From assembly GCA_964519305.1 (NCBI GenBank), contig CAZFHY010000001.1, forward strand, positions 486,218-550,217: DNA of 64,000 nucleotides, read 5' to 3'. How positions within the stretch are numbered: the first letter of the stretch is position 1; each line of letters opens with the position of its first letter. The position numbers were made by a program, and so were the translations under genes. Shown here in pieces: positions 3,971 to 15,691 of the stretch. The notes beneath the pieces were generated by a model. It was not told the origin of the DNA, ran no database searches, and was given only the letters and a program-made list of their open reading frames with translations. Origin of the DNA: Candidatus Undinarchaeota archaeon (GTDB taxonomy: Archaea > SpSt-1190 > JASMDC01).

Positions 3971-4585
3971 ATGGAAGGTGACGACACGGTCCGCATCCTT
4001 TGCTGTTCGGACCTTCATGGACGTGCAGACATCGCCCAAAAGGCCGCTGCCGATGAGCACGTCGATCTCGTCTTCGTGCTCGGTGACGCCGAGGGATACT
4101 GGGATTCCGATGTCCCTGTATACGCTGTCCTCGGGAATCATGAGGACTGGCAACAGGTCGACGAAATCCTTACCGGTCGACGGACGTTCCGTAATCTTAC
4201 CCTCATCCCATCGGGAACGGTCACACGGATTCCCGAGCTCGATATCACGGCCGGTGCTCTAGGTGGGGTGTGGGCCGAGCGACCGCGCAAGCGTGGCCAT
4301 TTCAGACAGGCCGAAGTAGAACGTCTGAAGGAGGCTGGTCACGTCGACGTGCTGCTCACCCACGAGTCGCCCCGCCCACTCTGGCATGGGTGTTCGACCA
4401 TCACGCACCTGGTGGCCTCCCTCTCTCCCTCGCTCTCCCTTTCCGGCCACGTCCACAGCCCCCAGATAATGCGGTACGAGGCCACCGATACATGGTTGGT
4501 GAACACGCCGCCCATCGCCGAGGGGCACGCCGTGGTGACATGGCTAGACGGTCAAGTGAGAAAGGTCGAACTGAAAGTCAGATAG
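3971..4585 (+). CDS. Calcineurin-like metallophosphoesterase
   Basis: Motifs SDLHG, LGD, GNHE, THESP and GHVH. Confidence 0.85.
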   Translation: MEGDDTVRILCCSDLHGRADIAQKAAADEHVDLVFVLGDAEGYWDSDVPVYAVLGNHEDWQQVDEILTGRRTFRNLTLIPSGTVTRIPELDITAGALGGVWAERPRKRGHFRQAEVERLKEAGHVDVLLTHESPRPLWHGCSTITHLVASLSPSLSLSGHVHSPQIMRYEATDTWLVNTPPIAEGHAVVTWLDGQVRKVELKVR

Positions 4586-4621
4586 AGTGCGCGTCAAAAG
4601 CTACCAACCGTTCGTCATACC

Positions 4622-4730
4622 CCGCACATCTCAGAGAGACAGTTTGCTGTCATCGCCCTTTCGGGCTAGGCTAGCGAAATACTCTTCATCGGGCAAGGTC
4701 TGTGGGTGTTACACCTCATCATCCGCGCGG
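4622..4730 (-). ncRNA. Candidate extended C/D-box guide-like sRNA
   Basis: Minus strand: terminal stem CCGCGC/GTGCGG, box C ATGATGA (4716-4722), box D CTGA (4631-4634), internal CGATGA elements and a GCCC-GAAA-GGGC hairpin. A TATA-like TTTTTTAA lies at 4752-4759. Confidence 0.6.
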
Positions 4731-4825
4731 AAAGGACGGTAGACCGGCCTGTTAAAAAACCTTTTGGCGCGGGCGGGTGAACCTTTTTAAAGGAGAGCAC
4801 CTACCCCGACCGCCGGTGCAATCCT

Positions 4826-6241
4826 ATGGGACTTGAGATGCTGATGTCAGGACCGCTCATGATCGCAGTTGCCGCTGTGCTCGCAATCGTGCTCGGTGTT
4901 GTGGTGGTTTCGCTCGTGCGTGGTATGCTGAACATGATGCTCGCATCGCTGCTGATTATCACAGTGTTACTTACTGCCGAGATGTTCTTCGCCTTCTACC
5001 TCTCTACAGAGGGGAGCATGAAGGATAGTCTTGATGTATTGATACAGGACGATGACCTCGCAAAGATCGTGGACATCATCGTCGTTGCCATCGACGAGGA
5101 ACATGATGAGTTCAAGCTCGACGGTCCGACGAAAACGGCCCTAGTGGAGGGGATCACCGAGTCTGATAAAGATAAGGTGAACATTGCAGTGGGCGCCATC
5201 CTCTTCGACAAGATGGAGAAGGAGCTCGCTGACAAGGATCTGCACAAGAAGCTGGGTGTCGACAAACTCGAGCTGTCGGGCGATCAGAAGCAGCTTCTGG
5301 CAAAGAAGATGATCGAGGAGAACGACACCGAAGAGATCAAGAAGGAGCTCGTTGCACAGATCCAGCTGGCCGCGATCCGTGAGGCCGCGCTCACAGAACC
5401 CGGTGCGAAGCAGGGCATGGACGAGAAGGTGGAGAACCTCTACGGTAATGCTCTGGGAGACGCACTCGTCGGCACCATCCAGACCGCGGGGAAGGCCCTT
5501 GGCGCGGATACGATCCTGCCCATCACCGATCCCCAGGTCATCAAGTTCAAGGAGCTCCAGGCGAGCGTGAAGGGGAGCGCTGACTTCTCGAAGAAGTACA
5601 AGGAGATGAACATCGGCCTCTCTGGCTCGCTCTCCGAGCCCAAGGCGATGTTCCAGGAGCGGGGCCCTGAGGCCATCTTCGCTATCGCCCTCCCATTGAT
5701 CTCAAGCCCTTTCGCCATGGTGTTCCCCCTGGTGAACGATGAGCTGAGCCCGGCCGAGCTCAACGGGAAGCTCAAGACGGGTTTGATCATCTTCGTGGTG
5801 CTCGACCTCATCCTCGGAGGAGGGCTGTTCCTCATCAACGGAGTGCTCAGTCTGAGCATCTCTACGGGATTCAAGGACGCCTTCAAGTACTTCGGTATCG
5901 CACTGATGATCGCAGGTGTGCTGCTATTCGGGTTAATGAAAATGGGTACGAAGGTCACCTCGATCCTCGACGATGACGGGCCCATCATGAGCCGGATGGA
6001 GGGCGAGACGCTCGAGAGCCGCATCGGCCTTGGAGTGTCCAGGATCTACATCAGCAACATCCGCGACCAGGTAAAGGTCAGTCTGGAGAAGCGCACAATG
6101 GGTGGTATCGGACTGGTGCTTATCGGCGCCTGTTCCTATGCTAACTCGATATTGGGCATCTTCCTAACTGGCAAGGGTAAGAAGAAGGAGACGAAGCCGG
6201 AACCACAACCGGAGCCCGAACCGGCCAAGGAAGAAGAATAG
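4826..6241 (+). CDS. Hypothetical multi-pass membrane protein with a large soluble helical domain
   Basis: 471-aa ORF with genome-typical codon usage, N- and C-terminal hydrophobic helices, and TATA TTTTTAAA at ~4784-4791. Confidence 0.7.
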   Translation: MGLEMLMSGPLMIAVAAVLAIVLGVVVVSLVRGMLNMMLASLLIITVLLTAEMFFAFYLSTEGSMKDSLDVLIQDDDLAKIVDIIVVAIDEEHDEFKLDGPTKTALVEGITESDKDKVNIAVGAILFDKMEKELADKDLHKKLGVDKLELSGDQKQLLAKKMIEENDTEEIKKELVAQIQLAAIREAALTEPGAKQGMDEKVENLYGNALGDALVGTIQTAGKALGADTILPITDPQVIKFKELQASVKGSADFSKKYKEMNIGLSGSLSEPKAMFQERGPEAIFAIALPLISSPFAMVFPLVNDELSPAELNGKLKTGLIIFVVLDLILGGGLFLINGVLSLSISTGFKDAFKYFGIALMIAGVLLFGLMKMGTKVTSILDDDGPIMSRMEGETLESRIGLGVSRIYISNIRDQVKVSLEKRTMGGIGLVLIGACSYANSILGIFLTGKGKKKETKPEPQPEPEPAKEEE

Positions 6242-10488: not shown

Positions 10489-10552
10489 CCACGCCTTCGC
10501 CTGATAAAGAGCTATAAATCGTACGCTCTCAACGGTTTTGGAGGCCATTTTC

Positions 10553-13500
10553 ATGAAGGCGAAGGCATATACGACCCTTTCAATCATTCTAGCGCTGTTC
10601 ATCGCGCTCGGTACAGCCGCGGGATGCGACTATTCGGCTGGTGAGAACTGCCAGACCAAACCAAACATCTGTCCCTGCGATCTTCCCGAGTTCCCAAACT
10701 GCGATCCTTCGCACGCCGACGCCGATGAGCGTGGATGCTGGGGCGAAGGCGGTAGCGGTGGCGCTACCGACTGTGGCCAGCACGTCACACAGGCAGCCTG
10801 CGACGTCACAGGTATGTGCAAGTGGTGCGAGGGCGACTCGGCACCGAACAGCTGTTTCCCCATGGAATACACTTGCCAAGGGAGCACCGGCGGTTACTGT
10901 GGCGACAGCAATTGTGCAGGCACCGAGGGCGAGGACTGCAACACCTGTTCACAGGACTGTGGCTGCCCTTCTGGTGACATCTGCAAGAGCGACGGGCACT
11001 GTTCGCCGGACACAGCTACCTCTGGCTACTGCGGCGACTACTCATGCAATCCTGGCGAGGATTACACTACCTGCTGCAAGGACTGCAAGTGCCCTGACGG
11101 CACGCTCTGCGATACCAACTCGAACACATGCGTCACCGACACCAGCAGCAGTAGTAATGACGACAGTGGCTACGTCTGCTGCCAGCCCTCGGAAAGTGGG
11201 GCTGATGCATGCCGCGTGGATCTCGGGGGCGCCTGCCCGAACGGATTCTCGCACCTCGATAACGAATGGGTGGATCCGTACAACCCCGCCAACTGCATCT
11301 ACCCGGGACCGGGCGCGACGAACCCGCCCTTCTGTCCGGCGGACGGCAGCGGGACGAGCTCTGGGGACTACATCCCCCCCCGGCCCCCGTCCTACGACAC
11401 CTGCGGCAACTGCCACTGGGAGTGCATGTTCGAGGACAATAAGCCCGATTACGAGTGCGACAACCAGTGCGGGTCCGTGTGCGACACGGGGACCACATAC
11501 CAGCCCGACCCGTCCTCAGAGCCTTCCGACCAGTGTCAGAACTGCCTCGACAAGTGCATGTACGAGATGCACCGCTCGAGCACGGAGTGCAAGGGGTTCT
11601 GCGAGTACGACTGCGGTGGTGCTGACGAGCCCACACCCACACCTTATACTTCAACGACCGATACCGGAGACCAGTGCGACAACTGCATGGACAAGTGCCG
11701 GTACGAGATGGGCCGTTCGACCTCTGAGTGCGAGGGCTTCTGCGAGTACGACTGCGGCGGAGGGGACACGGGTACAGATGACTTCGACACGTCCACTCCT
11801 TGTGGACAGTGCGAGTACCAGTGCGAGGTAGTGGAAAGGAAACCGGTCTACGAGTGCGATAAGATATGTGCACCCAAGTGCTCGGATTCGCCTCTCTTTG
11901 ATAACGAATGCGACAAGTGCTTCTACCAGTGCGTAGAGGTAGAGGGGAACTCGGAGTACAGATGCAAGGACAGGTGTCGGCCGGCCTGTGAGGGCGGCAC
12001 GGAGCAGCCATCGGGCAACGAGTGCGATAATTGCTTGTACAAGTGCGTAGAGGTGGAGGGGAACCTGGAGTACAGGTGCAAGGACAGGTGCCAGCCGGTC
12101 TGTGGGAGCATTCCGGAACAGCATGATGATTGCGGTATCTGCACCCACGAGTGCGAGGTCGTCGAACGTAGGCCCACCTACGAGTGCAAGTCGCTCTGTC
12201 GTGACGTCTGCGATGTGCCATTGGACACGGGTGATGCCCCCGACGTTAGAATCATCCCGACGACGGTCCGCCTGTACGAGCCCATGAACATTTGCAGAGG
12301 GAAGCTGAGCCTCGACGACGTCGACATGACCCGTTCCGAGGCTTTCTTCACAGCCGTGCGACCTGATGGTGCCAAGGAAGGATTCAACATCAAGTTCGAC
12401 GAGTTGAGATACTACCCGTTCTTCATTCACTTCGGTACATTTGCCGTCCATGCGGACGAGAGCTCGAGCCTTGAGCGCGATGCCGCCAACATCAACATCC
12501 ACAAGACCCCCGAGTGCGGGCCTTTCCCACCGCCGGACGACATCGGGGGTTCTGATGACGGCGGATGGCAGCCTTCGGGGGACGATATCCCCCCCAAGCC
12601 CCCGATCTACGACCGCTGCGGGACGTGCAAATGGAAGTGTGAGTTCGAGCAGAACCGTCCCGAGTACGAGTGCCGGGACGAGTGCGGCATTGTGTGCGGG
12701 GAGACCGAGGATCCCTGGGGAACGGACGAGTCCGATGAGTTCGACCTGTCAGAACCACCGTCCTACGCCTTCCGGGACCGACCTATGGAAGGCGGCTTTG
12801 TCGGTCGCCCCCTCCTGCTCAAGCTCAACGAGCCCGTCGAGGTGTGCGGGATGCAGTTCGAGGCGCTCGCCATCAATCCGGAGGAGCGCGTTCTGATGAT
12901 AAAGGCAGTGTGGCCCGATGGTAAGGCCGAGGAGGTCGGTGTCGATATAGACCAGGTGCTCGCGGGGACCATGCACGGCCTCGTCAAGCACTTCGACACG
13001 GTGTCGCTCCACGTCCCCGAGCCTGATAACGAGGAGGACAAACCGCCAATCGCCCGGAACTGGGCCGTGCTCGCCGCGATGATACGGACGGACTGTGCGC
13101 CGTTCTCCCTCTCGGACCTCATGCGAGGACCTGGCGAGGATCCGACCGAAGGGCCAGGTGACGGGGATGCCATCGTCGCTGACATCGAGATACTGGACGA
13201 CGGTCGGTTCATCACCAAGCTCGAGCGAGGTCAATGGACTCTCGTGTGCAGCCGAAGGGTGCGGTACCTGGACCTCAAGGACGGCGGCAAGGTGGCCGTC
13301 GTCGAGGCGGACACAGGGATCCGGATGCGCGAGCTACTCTTCAGAGCGGACACGTTCCACGATGAGGACGGCCGCGAGGTCACGGATGAACAACGCGTTG
13401 GCCTCAACATGGTAAAAGCGCTCAAGGACGGATTCCATGACGGCAACGTCCTCGCCATCCTCGTGAAGCCAGATCTCAGGTGTTCGGAGGAGCTCAAACA

Positions 13501-15691
13501 GCAGACGGGCGAGCAGCCCGTTCCCGGTGAGGGTCTAGAGCTCCCCAGCAGAATGATCTGCTGCGAACCAGAGGATGGTGCCGGTTCGGCCTGCATGGTC
13601 CCGATGCAAGGCAAGTGCCCCCGGGGCTTCAAAGCACTGGAGAACGAATGGATCGATCCGGACAGTAAGAACAATTGCATTTCTGATAGAGGCGTACGGC
13701 GCCCATTCTGTCGTGTCGGCCCTACCGATGAAGAAGGTCCGCAATGCGGTGACGGTGAGTGTCAGGAGAACGAGTCACAGGAGACCTGCTGCAAGGACTG
13801 TGGGTGCCCAGAGAACATGAGCTGCAGGGACGACAGGTGTGTCGCGAGGGCTCCGGACAACACCCGTCAGTGTGCCACGTTCTGCGGCCGGGTGACCGAA
13901 CCCGAGGTCTGCTCATTCGCCTGCATGTCATGCCCGGACTGCACGGACAAGGCCCCACCATGGCCCTGTCTTACTGACTGTGTCAAGGCCGAAACGGGCA
14001 TCGGTATGTCCGACCTGTGCGACAAGCGGTGCTCAAGGTCTAAGGACCCGGATACCTGCAACGCAGTGTGCGGTTCATGTCACAAGTGCTTGTTCATGAA
14101 GGACGCCAACAGGTGTCTTACAAACTGCGCTAAGGACAAGCTTAAAGTGTTCGCCAAGCGGTGTGACGGCATCTGCGATTCCTTCGGCGAGAAGGACGTC
14201 TGCAATCCCATCTGCCGCGATTGTCGCAAGTGCGTAGTCGATCCCGATGACACTTGTGCCGAGGAGTGTGTCAGCGAGCGCCGGGGAACTATGAAGGATG
14301 CCTGTGAAGAGGCCTGCGTCGACGAGGGTCCTGAGTGCGTGGATAAATGCCTCAAGTGCAGGAAGTGTGTCCCTCAGCTCGGTAAGGACGGCCTCCCGGA
14401 CTGCCTGCGTTCTTGTCTGGACTCCCAGGGCATGAAAAGGAAGATGCTCGACATGCTCAAGAAGGTCCAGGCAGAGGACGATGACATGGCCCGGAAGCTC
14501 CTGGTCGCCAGTGCCCTGGACGACAAGAAGAAAGAGCGCTTCCACAAGGCCATCGCCGACTCGCGCCACTCCATCAACGACCAGCGAGTCGATGATGCGA
14601 AGAAAGCCCTCGAGGACTTGGAGAAACAGCTGGCCGAGCTCAAGGAGCTCGAGATGAAGGTCAGGGTCCTTGAGAAGAAGGTGACGACGGTCAGGAAGAA
14701 GGTCGAGCGCAAGGACCTAGCAAAACACGTTTCCATGTTCGTCAAGAACAGGGCCGTCGATGAGGGTGATAACGTCACCGACGATACTGCCGATGACATA
14801 GCCAACGACACCGTTGAGGTAACCGAGGAAGAGATCAACATCACCCTAGAGGCTGAGGTGCTCGAGGTCGAAGAGGGCGAAACCAAGGAGAACGTCAGCG
14901 TGTTCACCATCTCGGTCAAGAACCTCAAGGACAAGAACCTCACTGACGTCACCATTATCCAGTCCATCCCCAAGGAGATCGCGGAGAGCGCATCCGAGCT
15001 CGTGTTCGCCGGTGCTGTGACCATCATCGAGGACGATCCAATCGTTGGATGGGACCTCTCAATGCTCGAAGAGGAGGAAGAACATAAGCTCAGCTTCTCC
15101 ACGAAGAAGAAGGTGGACCTTGATGCTATTGCCGACACCGAGACCGCTGCCGTCAAGGTAGCTGTCGAAGAGGTCGAGGTCAACACAATCGAGCAGGAGA
15201 TGGCATCCGAGGAAGGAGTGACCGATACTGAGGAGACCAAGCAGGCAATGGTGGAGCGCATCGAGGCCAGCTCCGACCAGCCTACTGGTGCGGTCGCACC
15301 TGTCGAGGGAGCGCCTGACGACAAGCCCGCTGATGAAGCGGCCACCAAGTCCGAGCTTCCCTTCGGGCTGTCGGGCAAGGACCTGCGCGGACTGCTCCTT
15401 GTCCTCATGGCGGTCGTCGTGCTCGTTGCCATGGTGAAGACCGGTATGACCACGGGCGGTACGTCCTCAGTTAGCACGGTCGAGCAGGATCGCCTTGAGG
15501 AGGCCTTCGGTCATGGTGAGGTCATCTCTGTCGAGGAGGACGGTGACGAGGTCGTCACAAAAGTGGAATCCCCGGTGAAGGTCGAGAAGAAGAAGGGCAA
15601 GGAGAAAACCGACACCGAGGAGACCGAGGGGGAAACGGAAGAAGACGAAGAAGAGAGTGATGAAGAAGAGGACAAGGGGAAGGCAGAATAA
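10553..15691 (+). CDS. Giant (1712 aa) cysteine-rich, secreted, membrane-anchored surface protein
   Basis: Signal peptide MKAKAYTTLSIILALFIALGTAAG, several Cys-repeat families, a coiled coil, a C-terminal TM (LLLVLMAVVVLVAMV) and an acidic tail. GGAGG SD upstream. Confidence 0.9.
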   Translation: MKAKAYTTLSIILALFIALGTAAGCDYSAGENCQTKPNICPCDLPEFPNCDPSHADADERGCWGEGGSGGATDCGQHVTQAACDVTGMCKWCEGDSAPNSCFPMEYTCQGSTGGYCGDSNCAGTEGEDCNTCSQDCGCPSGDICKSDGHCSPDTATSGYCGDYSCNPGEDYTTCCKDCKCPDGTLCDTNSNTCVTDTSSSSNDDSGYVCCQPSESGADACRVDLGGACPNGFSHLDNEWVDPYNPANCIYPGPGATNPPFCPADGSGTSSGDYIPPRPPSYDTCGNCHWECMFEDNKPDYECDNQCGSVCDTGTTYQPDPSSEPSDQCQNCLDKCMYEMHRSSTECKGFCEYDCGGADEPTPTPYTSTTDTGDQCDNCMDKCRYEMGRSTSECEGFCEYDCGGGDTGTDDFDTSTPCGQCEYQCEVVERKPVYECDKICAPKCSDSPLFDNECDKCFYQCVEVEGNSEYRCKDRCRPACEGGTEQPSGNECDNCLYKCVEVEGNLEYRCKDRCQPVCGSIPEQHDDCGICTHECEVVERRPTYECKSLCRDVCDVPLDTGDAPDVRIIPTTVRLYEPMNICRGKLSLDDVDMTRSEAFFTAVRPDGAKEGFNIKFDELRYYPFFIHFGTFAVHADESSSLERDAANINIHKTPECGPFPPPDDIGGSDDGGWQPSGDDIPPKPPIYDRCGTCKWKCEFEQNRPEYECRDECGIVCGETEDPWGTDESDEFDLSEPPSYAFRDRPMEGGFVGRPLLLKLNEPVEVCGMQFEALAINPEERVLMIKAVWPDGKAEEVGVDIDQVLAGTMHGLVKHFDTVSLHVPEPDNEEDKPPIARNWAVLAAMIRTDCAPFSLSDLMRGPGEDPTEGPGDGDAIVADIEILDDGRFITKLERGQWTLVCSRRVRYLDLKDGGKVAVVEADTGIRMRELLFRADTFHDEDGREVTDEQRVGLNMVKALKDGFHDGNVLAILVKPDLRCSEELKQQTGEQPVPGEGLELPSRMICCEPEDGAGSACMVPMQGKCPRGFKALENEWIDPDSKNNCISDRGVRRPFCRVGPTDEEGPQCGDGECQENESQETCCKDCGCPENMSCRDDRCVARAPDNTRQCATFCGRVTEPEVCSFACMSCPDCTDKAPPWPCLTDCVKAETGIGMSDLCDKRCSRSKDPDTCNAVCGSCHKCLFMKDANRCLTNCAKDKLKVFAKRCDGICDSFGEKDVCNPICRDCRKCVVDPDDTCAEECVSERRGTMKDACEEACVDEGPECVDKCLKCRKCVPQLGKDGLPDCLRSCLDSQGMKRKMLDMLKKVQAEDDDMARKLLVASALDDKKKERFHKAIADSRHSINDQRVDDAKKALEDLEKQLAELKELEMKVRVLEKKVTTVRKKVERKDLAKHVSMFVKNRAVDEGDNVTDDTADDIANDTVEVTEEEINITLEAEVLEVEEGETKENVSVFTISVKNLKDKNLTDVTIIQSIPKEIAESASELVFAGAVTIIEDDPIVGWDLSMLEEEEEHKLSFSTKKKVDLDAIADTETAAVKVAVEEVEVNTIEQEMASEEGVTDTEETKQAMVERIEASSDQPTGAVAPVEGAPDDKPADEAATKSELPFGLSGKDLRGLLLVLMAVVVLVAMVKTGMTTGGTSSVSTVEQDRLEEAFGHGEVISVEEDGDEVVTKVESPVKVEKKKGKEKTDTEETEGETEEDEEESDEEEDKGKAE
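11400..12212 (+). repeat. Seven tandem Cx2Cx3Cx10Cx3Cx3C modules in the giant protein (eighth copy at ~12616-12698)
   Basis: Examples: CQNCLDKCMYEMHRSSTECKGFCEYDC, CDNCMDKCRYEMGRSTSECEGFCEYDC, CDKCFYQCVEVEGNSEYRCKDRCRPAC, CDNCLYKCVEVEGNLEYRCKDRCQPVC. Confidence 0.85.

What the first reader, a model, noticed from the sequence alone, without database searches (positions are those of the whole stretch)
4622..4760. Unannotated, promoter-driven, extended C/D-box-like RNA with possibly three guide segments
Seen on the minus strand: TATA TTTTTTAA ~25 nt upstream, then CCGCGC-GG-ATGATGA-[GGTGTAACACCCA]-CAGA-CCTTGCC-CGATGA-[AGAGTATTTCGCTAG]-CCTA-GCCCGAAAGGG-CGATGA-[CAGCAAACTGTCTCT]-CTGA-GAT-GTGCGG. 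Established: archaeal C/D sRNAs are usually ~50-70 nt with two guides. This one is ~109 nt, with two internal C'-like elements and a GNRA hairpin. Inference: a three-guide or hairpin-extended sRNA. From memory, segments 2 and 3 resemble antisense to conserved 23S stretches (TAGCGAAAT, GAGACAGTT); this is unverified.
Basis: partly seen in the sequence, partly recalled or inferred. Interest (0 to 1): 0.7.

Follow-up and report, generated by a model that had tools for sequence, protein, structure and literature searches.

The report
Three-guide archaeal rRNA methylation RNA
This small archaeal RNA carries three address labels instead of the usual two, each matching a spot in the catalytic core of the cell's own large ribosomal RNA, and unrelated three-label guide RNAs turn up in several other archaea, so the standard two-guide picture looks incomplete.

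Summary
Confirmed and extended. The 109-nt intergenic RNA (minus strand, 4730-4622) of this Undinarchaeota archaeon is a box C/D guide RNA with three guide/D-box units under one terminal stem. Guides 2 and 3 pair 11 bp with the genome's own 23S rRNA (D+5 = E. coli C1934 and A2600). The three changes in a sister genome all fit the structure, and one restores the consensus D' box. Relatives keep the U2552 and C1934 guides in separate, ordinary sRNAs, so this looks like a fusion. Fibrillarin, Nop5 and L7Ae are present; no RlmE passes its cut-off. Five unrelated three-unit RNAs were found in four other archaeal genomes, one with three perfect rRNA matches and one already sequenced as an 88-nt RNA but published with two targets. 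Seven searches for three-guide wording found no description, and the scan's earlier notes showed none. Expression and methylation are untested. The middle D box is degenerate, and guide 1 can self-fold. New variant of a known kind; it offers a natural test of how a two-fold symmetric enzyme serves three guides.

The parts
4752..4765 (-). Purine-rich stretch plus T-rich TATA-like box; likely promoter, predicted start of transcription near 4731
   Evidence: Same kind of box starts 20-45 nt upstream of 16 of 38 tRNA calls in this genome versus 1.4% of random positions; identical in G001
4725..4731 (-). 5' arm of terminal stem
   Evidence: Pairs with 4621-4627; -12.5 kcal/mol against -7.6 and -4.6 for closing after the internal D boxes; G001 changes a U-G pair to C-G
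4716..4722 (-). Box C, perfect consensus
   Evidence: Sequence
4703..4715 (-). Guide 1 (13 nt): antisense to the 23S A-loop, own 2628-2638 (E. coli 2549-2559); D'+5 = own U2631 = E. coli U2552
   Evidence: 7 pairs, one bulged guide base, 4 pairs; unbulged homolog is the D' guide in 10 of 10 genomes of family f2; numbering
4699..4702 (-). Box D' (CAGA; consensus CTGA in G001)
   Evidence: Alignment with G001
4692..4698 (-). 7-nt linker between D' and C' (K-loop size); can also pair with the 3' flank to close an inner two-guide form
   Evidence: Alternative 7-bp stem, -9.5 kcal/mol; any role is inferred
4686..4691 (-). Box C'
   Evidence: Sequence; identical in G001
4671..4685 (-). Guide 2 (15 nt): antisense to own 23S 2020-2030 (E. 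coli 1931-1941); D''+5 = own C2023 = E. coli C1934
   Evidence: 11 Watson-Crick pairs, 4 of 2000 shuffles; same guide end and register before a consensus D box in G002 and in published Mka sR43, assigned to the same site
4667..4670 (-). Box D'' (CCTA), degenerate: lacks the G of the second sheared G-A pair
   Evidence: Position fixed by the homologous guides above; identical in G001
4655..4666 (-). 4-bp hairpin with GAAA loop, in place of a K-loop
   Evidence: G001 keeps it with a C-G to U-G change; other sRNAs of this genus also have a TA-ending element, a hairpin and a C'-like box in a row
4650..4655 (-). Box C''
   Evidence: Sequence; identical in G001
4635..4649 (-). Guide 3 (15 nt): antisense to own 23S 2676-2686 (E. 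coli 2597-2607, helix 93); D+5 = own A2679 = E. coli A2600
   Evidence: 11 Watson-Crick pairs, 4 of 2000 shuffles; found only in G000 and G001 of 17 phylum genomes; site not in the published target table
4631..4634 (-). Box D, perfect consensus
   Evidence: Sequence
4621..4627 (-). 3' arm of terminal stem

Best explanation
One independently transcribed box C/D guide RNA with three working guides. L7Ae, Nop5 and fibrillarin assemble on its box pairs and 2'-O-methylate, by the D+5 rule, three positions in the core of 23S rRNA: U2552 (A-loop, helix 92), A2600 (helix 93) and C1934 (just 5' of helix 71), E. coli numbering. Shown: the boxes, the stem, the three complementarities, the register of guides 1 and 2 from homologs, and the protein genes. 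Inferred: transcription, protein binding and methylation. Also inferred: how a two-fold symmetric Nop5 dimer copes. Most likely it engages two of the three box pairs at a time, as alternative ordinary two-guide particles (outer stem with guides 1 and 3; inner stem with guides 2 and 3). Origin, inferred: fusion of the phylum's U2552 sRNA, whose second guide has no conserved target, with a second sRNA that carried the C1934 guide.
For: Guides 2 and 3: 11 pairs each next to the D box, D+5 paired, 4 of 2000 shuffles each. Guide 1: its best partner among all rRNAs and tRNAs of the genome is the A-loop; 11 pairs with one bulge, 16 of 2000 shuffles against rRNA; D+5 falls on U2552, a guided site in five of seven species of Dennis 2015. 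It is the only A-loop guide match in G000, and no RlmE passes the cut-off in 17 of 17 genomes of the class. The RNA differs from G001 at 3 of 113 positions against 330 of 2826 in the flanking genes (Fisher p = 0.0012); all three changes keep or improve the structure and none touches a guide. Separate two-guide sRNAs carry guide 1 in 10 of 10 f2 genomes, and a separate sRNA carries guide 2 in G002. Fibrillarin, Nop5 and L7Ae genes are present. The layout recurs: L180 has three guides with 10 perfect pairs each to its own rRNA, and MKAsR19 is listed as one 88-nt sequenced RNA with three C-like boxes.
Against: D'' is CCTA in both genomes, so the second sheared G-A pair is missing and the hairpin abuts C'' without a K-turn bulge; it may not bind L7Ae. 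Guide 1 has only 7 unbroken pairs (935 of 2000 shuffles do as well), below the 9-pair rule of Dennis 2015. By duplex energy alone no guide stands out clearly (14, 67 and 18 of 250 shuffles). A2600 is not in the published target table. Only two near-identical genomes hold the RNA, so there is almost no covariation, and the promoter region is also better conserved than the genes (5 of 93). A 176-aa SAM-dependent methyltransferase of G000 passes the Pfam FtsJ cut-off on its SAM-binding stretch, so a protein-only route to Um2552 is not formally excluded.
Confidence: 0.65

Rival explanations
1. A two-guide methylation RNA (guides 1 and 3: U2552 and A2600, 48 nt apart) whose internal loop carries an inserted module. 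Guide 2 still pairs with the 1931-1941 region but only as a tether or folding aid, because its CCTA box is dead.
For: D'' is the only box that lacks a sheared-pair G, in both genomes. Published Neq sR10 pairs a U2552 guide with a helix-93 guide (C2606) in one two-guide RNA. Both box motifs are needed for specific methylation in vitro (PMC1635284 abstract). The linker's first four bases could pair with bases just before C'' and so close D' onto C'' (read from the sequence).
Against: Guide 2 keeps the exact D+5 register of homologs with consensus boxes, and C' and C'' are both intact. Other sRNAs of the genus use the same TA-hairpin-C' arrangement with freely varying hairpins. Unusual boxes are common in real archaeal sRNAs (PMC6009581 section 12).
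Confidence: 0.17
2. Guides 2 and 3 work as an ordinary two-guide RNA (C' to D, closed by the inner stem); unit 1 is a decaying remnant or is trimmed off.
For: Guide 1 is bulged and self-folding, and D' is CAGA in G000. The inner stem can form (-9.5 kcal/mol). Clusters of two or three sRNA genes that are processed are known (PMC7994747 section 9).
Against: The outer stem is stronger (-12.5) and is improved in G001, where D' is consensus. Unit 1 has the only perfect box C, directly behind the promoter. No other U2552 guide and no RlmE over cut-off were found in the genome.
Confidence: 0.12
3. Chance arrangement of box-like words in intergenic DNA; no functional RNA.
For: No Rfam match; folding z-score -0.95; GATGA words are frequent in these genomes.
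Against: Top of 70 parses genome-wide; two independent 11-bp matches at the right register; homologous guides in other genomes; excess conservation.
Confidence: 0.02

Closest known systems
Archaeal box C/D sRNAs (Dennis et al. 2015, PMC4644070; Lui et al. 2018, PMC6009581; Breuer et al. 2021, PMC7994747)
   Same: Boxes C and D with terminal stem, internal C'/D'-like boxes, 10-15-nt guides antisense to rRNA, D+5 register, targets in the helix 68-71 and 90-93 hotspots, Nop5/fibrillarin/L7Ae in the genome.
   Different: Three guides and three box pairs in 92 nt from C to D, where the papers describe about 50 nt and two guides; one internal motif is a degenerate D box followed by a GNRA hairpin.
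MKAsR19 in supplementary file 1 of Dennis et al. 2015
   Same: An 88-nt sequenced RNA (coverage 3700) with three C-like boxes and three guide-sized segments; the same letters were hit here as locus L168.
   Different: Unrelated sequence. The paper assigns it two 16S targets, and its main text has no 'sR19' or 'three guide'. Its third segment had no convincing rRNA match here (6 Watson-Crick pairs plus 4 G-U).
Neq sR10 and Mka sR43 (Dennis et al. 2015)
   Same: Neq sR10 guides U2552 plus a helix-93 site; Mka sR43 guides C1934 with the same guide end and register as guide 2.
   Different: Each is a separate two-guide RNA; neither targets A2600.
Clusters of two or three sRNA genes (PMC7994747 section 9; four-unit arrays L111, L114, L115, L170, L175, L181, L193)
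   Same: More than two guide units in a row behind one promoter.
   Different: Those have an even number of units that split into ordinary RNAs. Here the number is odd and one stem joins the outermost ends.
Yeast snR13, snR48 and U18 (van Nues and Watkins, PMC5389607, abstract only)
   Same: An unusual internal motif and alternative particles let one RNA direct extra methylations.
   Different: There one guide marks two neighbouring nucleotides. Here three separate guides address three regions.

Membership tests
Archaeal box C/D methylation guide sRNA | Terminal box C (RUGAUGA) and box D (CUGA), able to form a K-turn | tested here: met
   Both perfect, closed by a 7-bp stem
Archaeal box C/D methylation guide sRNA | Internal D'/C' pair with short loop | tested here: met
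   D' CAGA (CTGA in G001), 7-nt loop, C'
Archaeal box C/D methylation guide sRNA | At least 9 consecutive Watson-Crick pairs with rRNA or tRNA covering D+5 | tested here: met
   Met by guides 2 and 3 (11 bp); guide 1 reaches 7 unbroken pairs, 11 with one bulge
Archaeal box C/D methylation guide sRNA | Exactly two guides, bipartite layout of about 50-60 nt | tested here: not met
   Three units, 92 nt from C to D; hence filed as a variant, not an ordinary member
Archaeal box C/D methylation guide sRNA | L7Ae, Nop5 and fibrillarin encoded in the genome | tested here: met
   All over the Pfam cut-off; Nop5 and fibrillarin adjacent on C12
Archaeal box C/D methylation guide sRNA | Expressed as a small RNA | not testable with these tools
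   No RNA run holding this stretch was listed
Archaeal box C/D methylation guide sRNA | L7Ae binding and site-specific 2'-O-methylation | not testable with these tools
   Needs reconstitution or RiboMeth-seq
Any Rfam 15 family (sR1-sR60 and others) | Score at or above the gathering threshold | tested here: not met
   0 matches in the window
Cluster of separate two-guide sRNAs | Even number of units, each pair with its own terminal C/D closure | tested here: not met
   Three units; the outer closure is the strongest, although an inner closure is possible

The most novel reading that the evidence does not exclude
Three-guide C/D RNAs are an overlooked, repeatedly evolved class that assembles a particle with three active sites (a ring of three box motifs, or two RNAs on three Nop5 dimers). 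This one grips helices 92, 93 and the approach to helix 71 at the same time, acting as an RNA chaperone for the late step in which Um2552 locks helix 92 onto helix 71, a step done by the protein RlmE in bacteria.
Probability: 0.2. Interest if true: 0.82.

Novelty: new variant of a known kind. Interest (0 to 1): 0.6.

Why it matters
Archaeal C/D RNAs are described as strictly two-guide, matched to a two-fold symmetric protein scaffold (PMC4644070 and PMC1635284 abstracts). A natural RNA with three box pairs cannot fit that scaffold in one piece, so it is a ready-made substrate for asking how Nop5 dimers are arranged on guide RNAs. The single-RNA versus double-RNA particle question is still argued (listed abstracts of PMC5062973 and PMC3001065; the state of the debate is recalled). 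Search models built for two guides would miss or truncate such RNAs, as the published treatment of MKAsR19 suggests. In an organism that seems to have only a handful of guide RNAs, one RNA covering three sites around the peptidyl transferase centre also points to which modifications matter most.

Tried and rejected
Expression: no RNA holder was listed, and 0 contigs of 3 same-study RNA runs lay on 4400-5000; this says nothing either way. Wider homologs: blastn over 61 genomes found only G001; the guide 2 + guide 3 pattern gave 1 hit in the genome collection and 17 in metagenomes, of which 16 lack the box layout and 1 repeats the G001 sequence. A first, loose genome scan (247 candidates) was mostly noise and was replaced. 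Guide 3 outside the genus: the G011 hit is inside a coding region. Four of the A-loop pattern hits (L059, L060, L071, L075) look coding or chance. The linker's 7-nt match to 23S 667-673 is what chance gives in 8.7 kb and was dropped. The 134-aa ORF 4270-4674 on the other strand overlaps the phosphoesterase gene out of frame and has no Pfam match; treated as spurious. Energy-based shuffles were weak and are reported against the reading. The three-C-box pattern over 401 genomes was mostly coding sequence and 193 of its matches were not listed. L110's three segments had no rRNA match above 7 unbroken Watson-Crick pairs, and tRNAs were not tested for it. The Haloferax sR-tMet paper is not held, so its unusual C'/D' motif is recalled only. 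The one paper uses 'three C/D' to mean three separate RNAs, and the one is about RNase P RNA (listing only).

Full report
Observation. The RNA runs from 4730 to 4622 (109 nt; 92 nt from box C to box D), between a metallophosphoesterase gene ending at 4585 and an ORF starting at 4826. The neighbourhood (GatD, GatE, HMG-CoA reductase) and the rRNA matches are archaeal. The only other genome with the RNA carries the label Candidatus Undinarchaeales. Rfam finds nothing in the window.

More than chance. A scan of the whole genome for box C, two to five guide/box units and box D gave 70 parses. This locus scored 17.5 and the next independent one 5.0; with reversed targets nothing reached 8. The scoring was my own and was written after seeing this RNA. 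The T-rich box upstream is of the kind found 20-45 nt before 16 of 38 tRNA calls, against 1.4% of random positions.

Targets. Against the genome's own 23S rRNA (C14:30276-33281), guide 2 makes 11 Watson-Crick pairs with 2020-2030 and guide 3 makes 11 with 2676-2686; the D+5 positions are C2023 and A2679. Of 2000 shuffles, 4 match either result against the rRNAs, and 3 and 6 with tRNAs added. Guide 1 makes 7 pairs next to D', skips one guide base and makes 4 more with 2628-2638; D'+5 is U2631. Unbulged, this is unremarkable (935 of 2000); with one bulge allowed, 16 of 2000 against rRNA and 43 of 2000 with tRNAs, a test chosen after the fact. On the E. coli-numbered alignment in Dennis 2015 these sites are U2552, C1934 and A2600. 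By duplex energy alone the guides are not clearly better than shuffles (14, 67 and 18 of 250), because G-U-rich duplexes score well.

Conservation. A blastn search of 61 genomes found only G001, of the same genus. The RNA differs at 3 of 113 positions; the three flanking gene stretches differ at 330 of 2826 (p = 0.0012), and the promoter region at 5 of 93. The three changes turn D' into the consensus, keep a hairpin pair as U-G and strengthen the terminal stem. Single guides are older than the RNA. An A-loop guide pattern matched 14 of 17 genomes of the phylum. In 10 of 10 genomes of family f2 it is the D' guide of an ordinary 47-68-nt two-guide sRNA, with 11-13 perfect pairs and a second guide that is not conserved (tested on a relative's 23S, since no complete f2 23S was found in the three f2 genomes tried). 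Guide 2 occurs before a consensus D box, in the same register, in a separate sRNA of G002 cut by a contig end (3 of 17 genomes matched, two being G000 and G001), and in Mka sR43, which the paper assigns to the same site. This fixes the degenerate CCTA as the D'' box. Guide 3 was found only in G000 and G001, and A2600 is absent from the paper's target table.

Machinery. Fibrillarin, Nop5 and L7Ae pass their Pfam cut-offs. The RlmE model is passed by 0 of 17 genomes of the class; G000's best hit has 31.8 bits against a cut-off of 300. That protein is a 176-aa generic SAM-dependent methyltransferase, which does pass the looser Pfam FtsJ cut-off on its SAM-binding stretch. Guide 1 is the only A-loop guide match in G000.

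How it most likely works. Established: the box pairs bind L7Ae, then Nop5 and fibrillarin, and both motifs of the two-part RNA are needed for specific methylation (PMC6009581 passage; PMC1635284 abstract). Inferred: with three motifs, a Nop5 dimer can hold two at a time. The sequence allows an outer stem (-12.5 kcal/mol) and an inner stem between the linker and the same 3' arm (-9.5), which exclude each other. The outer form would present guides 1 and 3, the inner form guides 2 and 3, each as an ordinary two-guide particle. I put all three guides methylating at about 0.65, a non-methylating guide 2 at 0.17 and a decaying unit 1 at 0.12. In E. coli, Um2552 promotes docking of helix 92 on helix 71 through a U2552-C2556-U1955 triple (PMC6486555 passages). 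Guide 2 binds just 5' of helix 71 (helix limits recalled) and guide 3 on helix 93, so the three targets are neighbours in the finished subunit; I could not measure distances. Long-range chaperoning by two-guide RNAs is already proposed.

Origin (inference). Relatives hold guides 1 and 2 in separate RNAs, and arrays of two sRNAs with spacers of 0-22 nt exist in other archaea (L111, L114, L115, L181). Deleting the orphan half of the U2552 RNA from such a pair would give this layout.

The layout recurs. Two patterns were run over 401 archaeal genomes. The first needs three C-like boxes and left 193 matches unlisted; I inspected 23 loci chosen by eye. The second needs a middle guide of exactly 12 nt and matched 89 genomes; I inspected 59 stretches. 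Five are clear three-unit arrays, in four genomes of four families (L110 and L180 in G356, L082 in G278, L168 in G052, L178 in G370); L112 is uncertain, and Rfam sR47 covers its last two units. Against their own rRNAs, L180 has 10 perfect pairs in all three guides, L178 and L082 have 9-11 in two, L168 has 11 in one and 12 with a G-U in another, and L110 has none. Their terminal stems are weak except in L168, so some may be a one-guide RNA beside a two-guide RNA. This is a lower bound from narrow patterns, not a census. L168 has the same letters as MKAsR19, listed as an 88-nt sequenced RNA that stops just before the last D box and is given two targets.

What is in print. Searches for three-guide wording, for K-loop papers and for Undinarchaeota with fibrillarin found no description; the library lacks most subscription journals. 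Seen: PMC4644070 (passages; supplement 1 part 1 and searches; supplement 2 parts 1 and 3 and searches), PMC6009581 (passages, section 12), PMC7994747 (passages, section 9), PMC3695527, PMC6486555, PMC4033218 and PMC5378194 (passages), PMC1635284 and PMC5389607 (abstracts). Supplements of PMC6009581 and PMC3695527, and Tripp et al. 2017, were not read and could mention such RNAs. The scan's earlier notes showed no three-guide RNA (the word 'three' was dropped by that tool).

Verdict. A real box C/D guide RNA with a three-unit layout not found described; a new variant of a known kind; interest 0.6.

Noticed in passing
G000 C26:19704-19764 (+) and C9:78534-78591 (+); G001 loci L221, L223, L225, L227: A family of unusual C/D-like RNAs with shared GC-rich terminal stems: box C, a guide, a GGTA element, a hairpin of variable length, C', a second segment, box D. 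First guides pair with the anticodon/intron junction of pre-tRNA-Trp (11 bp; one copy in G000, four matches in G001) or pre-tRNA-Met (9 bp). The second segment of the C9 RNA matches 7 nt of the tRNA-Met intron. Counting five from GGTA does not land on position 34, so the register or the function is unexplained.
   Followed up: partly
G000 C2:85602-85661 (+): Probable two-guide C/D sRNA in an intergenic gap; its D guide points to 16S C1342 (own numbering; the C1402 region of E. coli, recalled); the other guide has no clear target.
   Followed up: partly
G000 and G001, whole genomes: At 3.6 and 3.8 Mb these genomes are three to six times larger than the other 15 of their class (0.6-1.2 Mb).
   Followed up: no
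L180 (G356:C1:83517-83865) and L110 (G356:C1:556150-556700): Two three-unit C/D arrays with perfect boxes in one complete genome; all three guides of L180 match its own rRNA, none of L110's do (tRNAs untested). The same genome has two four-unit arrays, L111 and L181.
   Followed up: partly
L082 (G278:C1:441317-441412): Three-unit array whose first and third guides begin alike, as if by partial duplication; they match 23S and 16S respectively.
   Followed up: partly
L178 (G370:C13:76403-76742): 75-nt three-unit array a few hundred bases from the start of the 23S rRNA gene, on the other strand.
   Followed up: partly
L063-L070, L072, L074: In family f2 the U2552 sRNA keeps one invariant guide while the second guide varies freely and is often U-rich.
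   Followed up: partly
L025 (G005:C8:2635-6394): The 23S rRNA match spans 3760 nt, about 750 more than usual, suggesting an intron between the P-loop and the A-loop.
   Followed up: no
window 10538-15691 (+): A 1717-aa cysteine-rich, repeat-containing, probably secreted protein with no NCBIfam match.
   Followed up: no
window 4752-4790: Back-to-back T-rich boxes, one on each strand, serve the RNA (minus) and the 471-aa membrane-type ORF at 4826 (plus; no Pfam or NCBIfam match).
   Followed up: no
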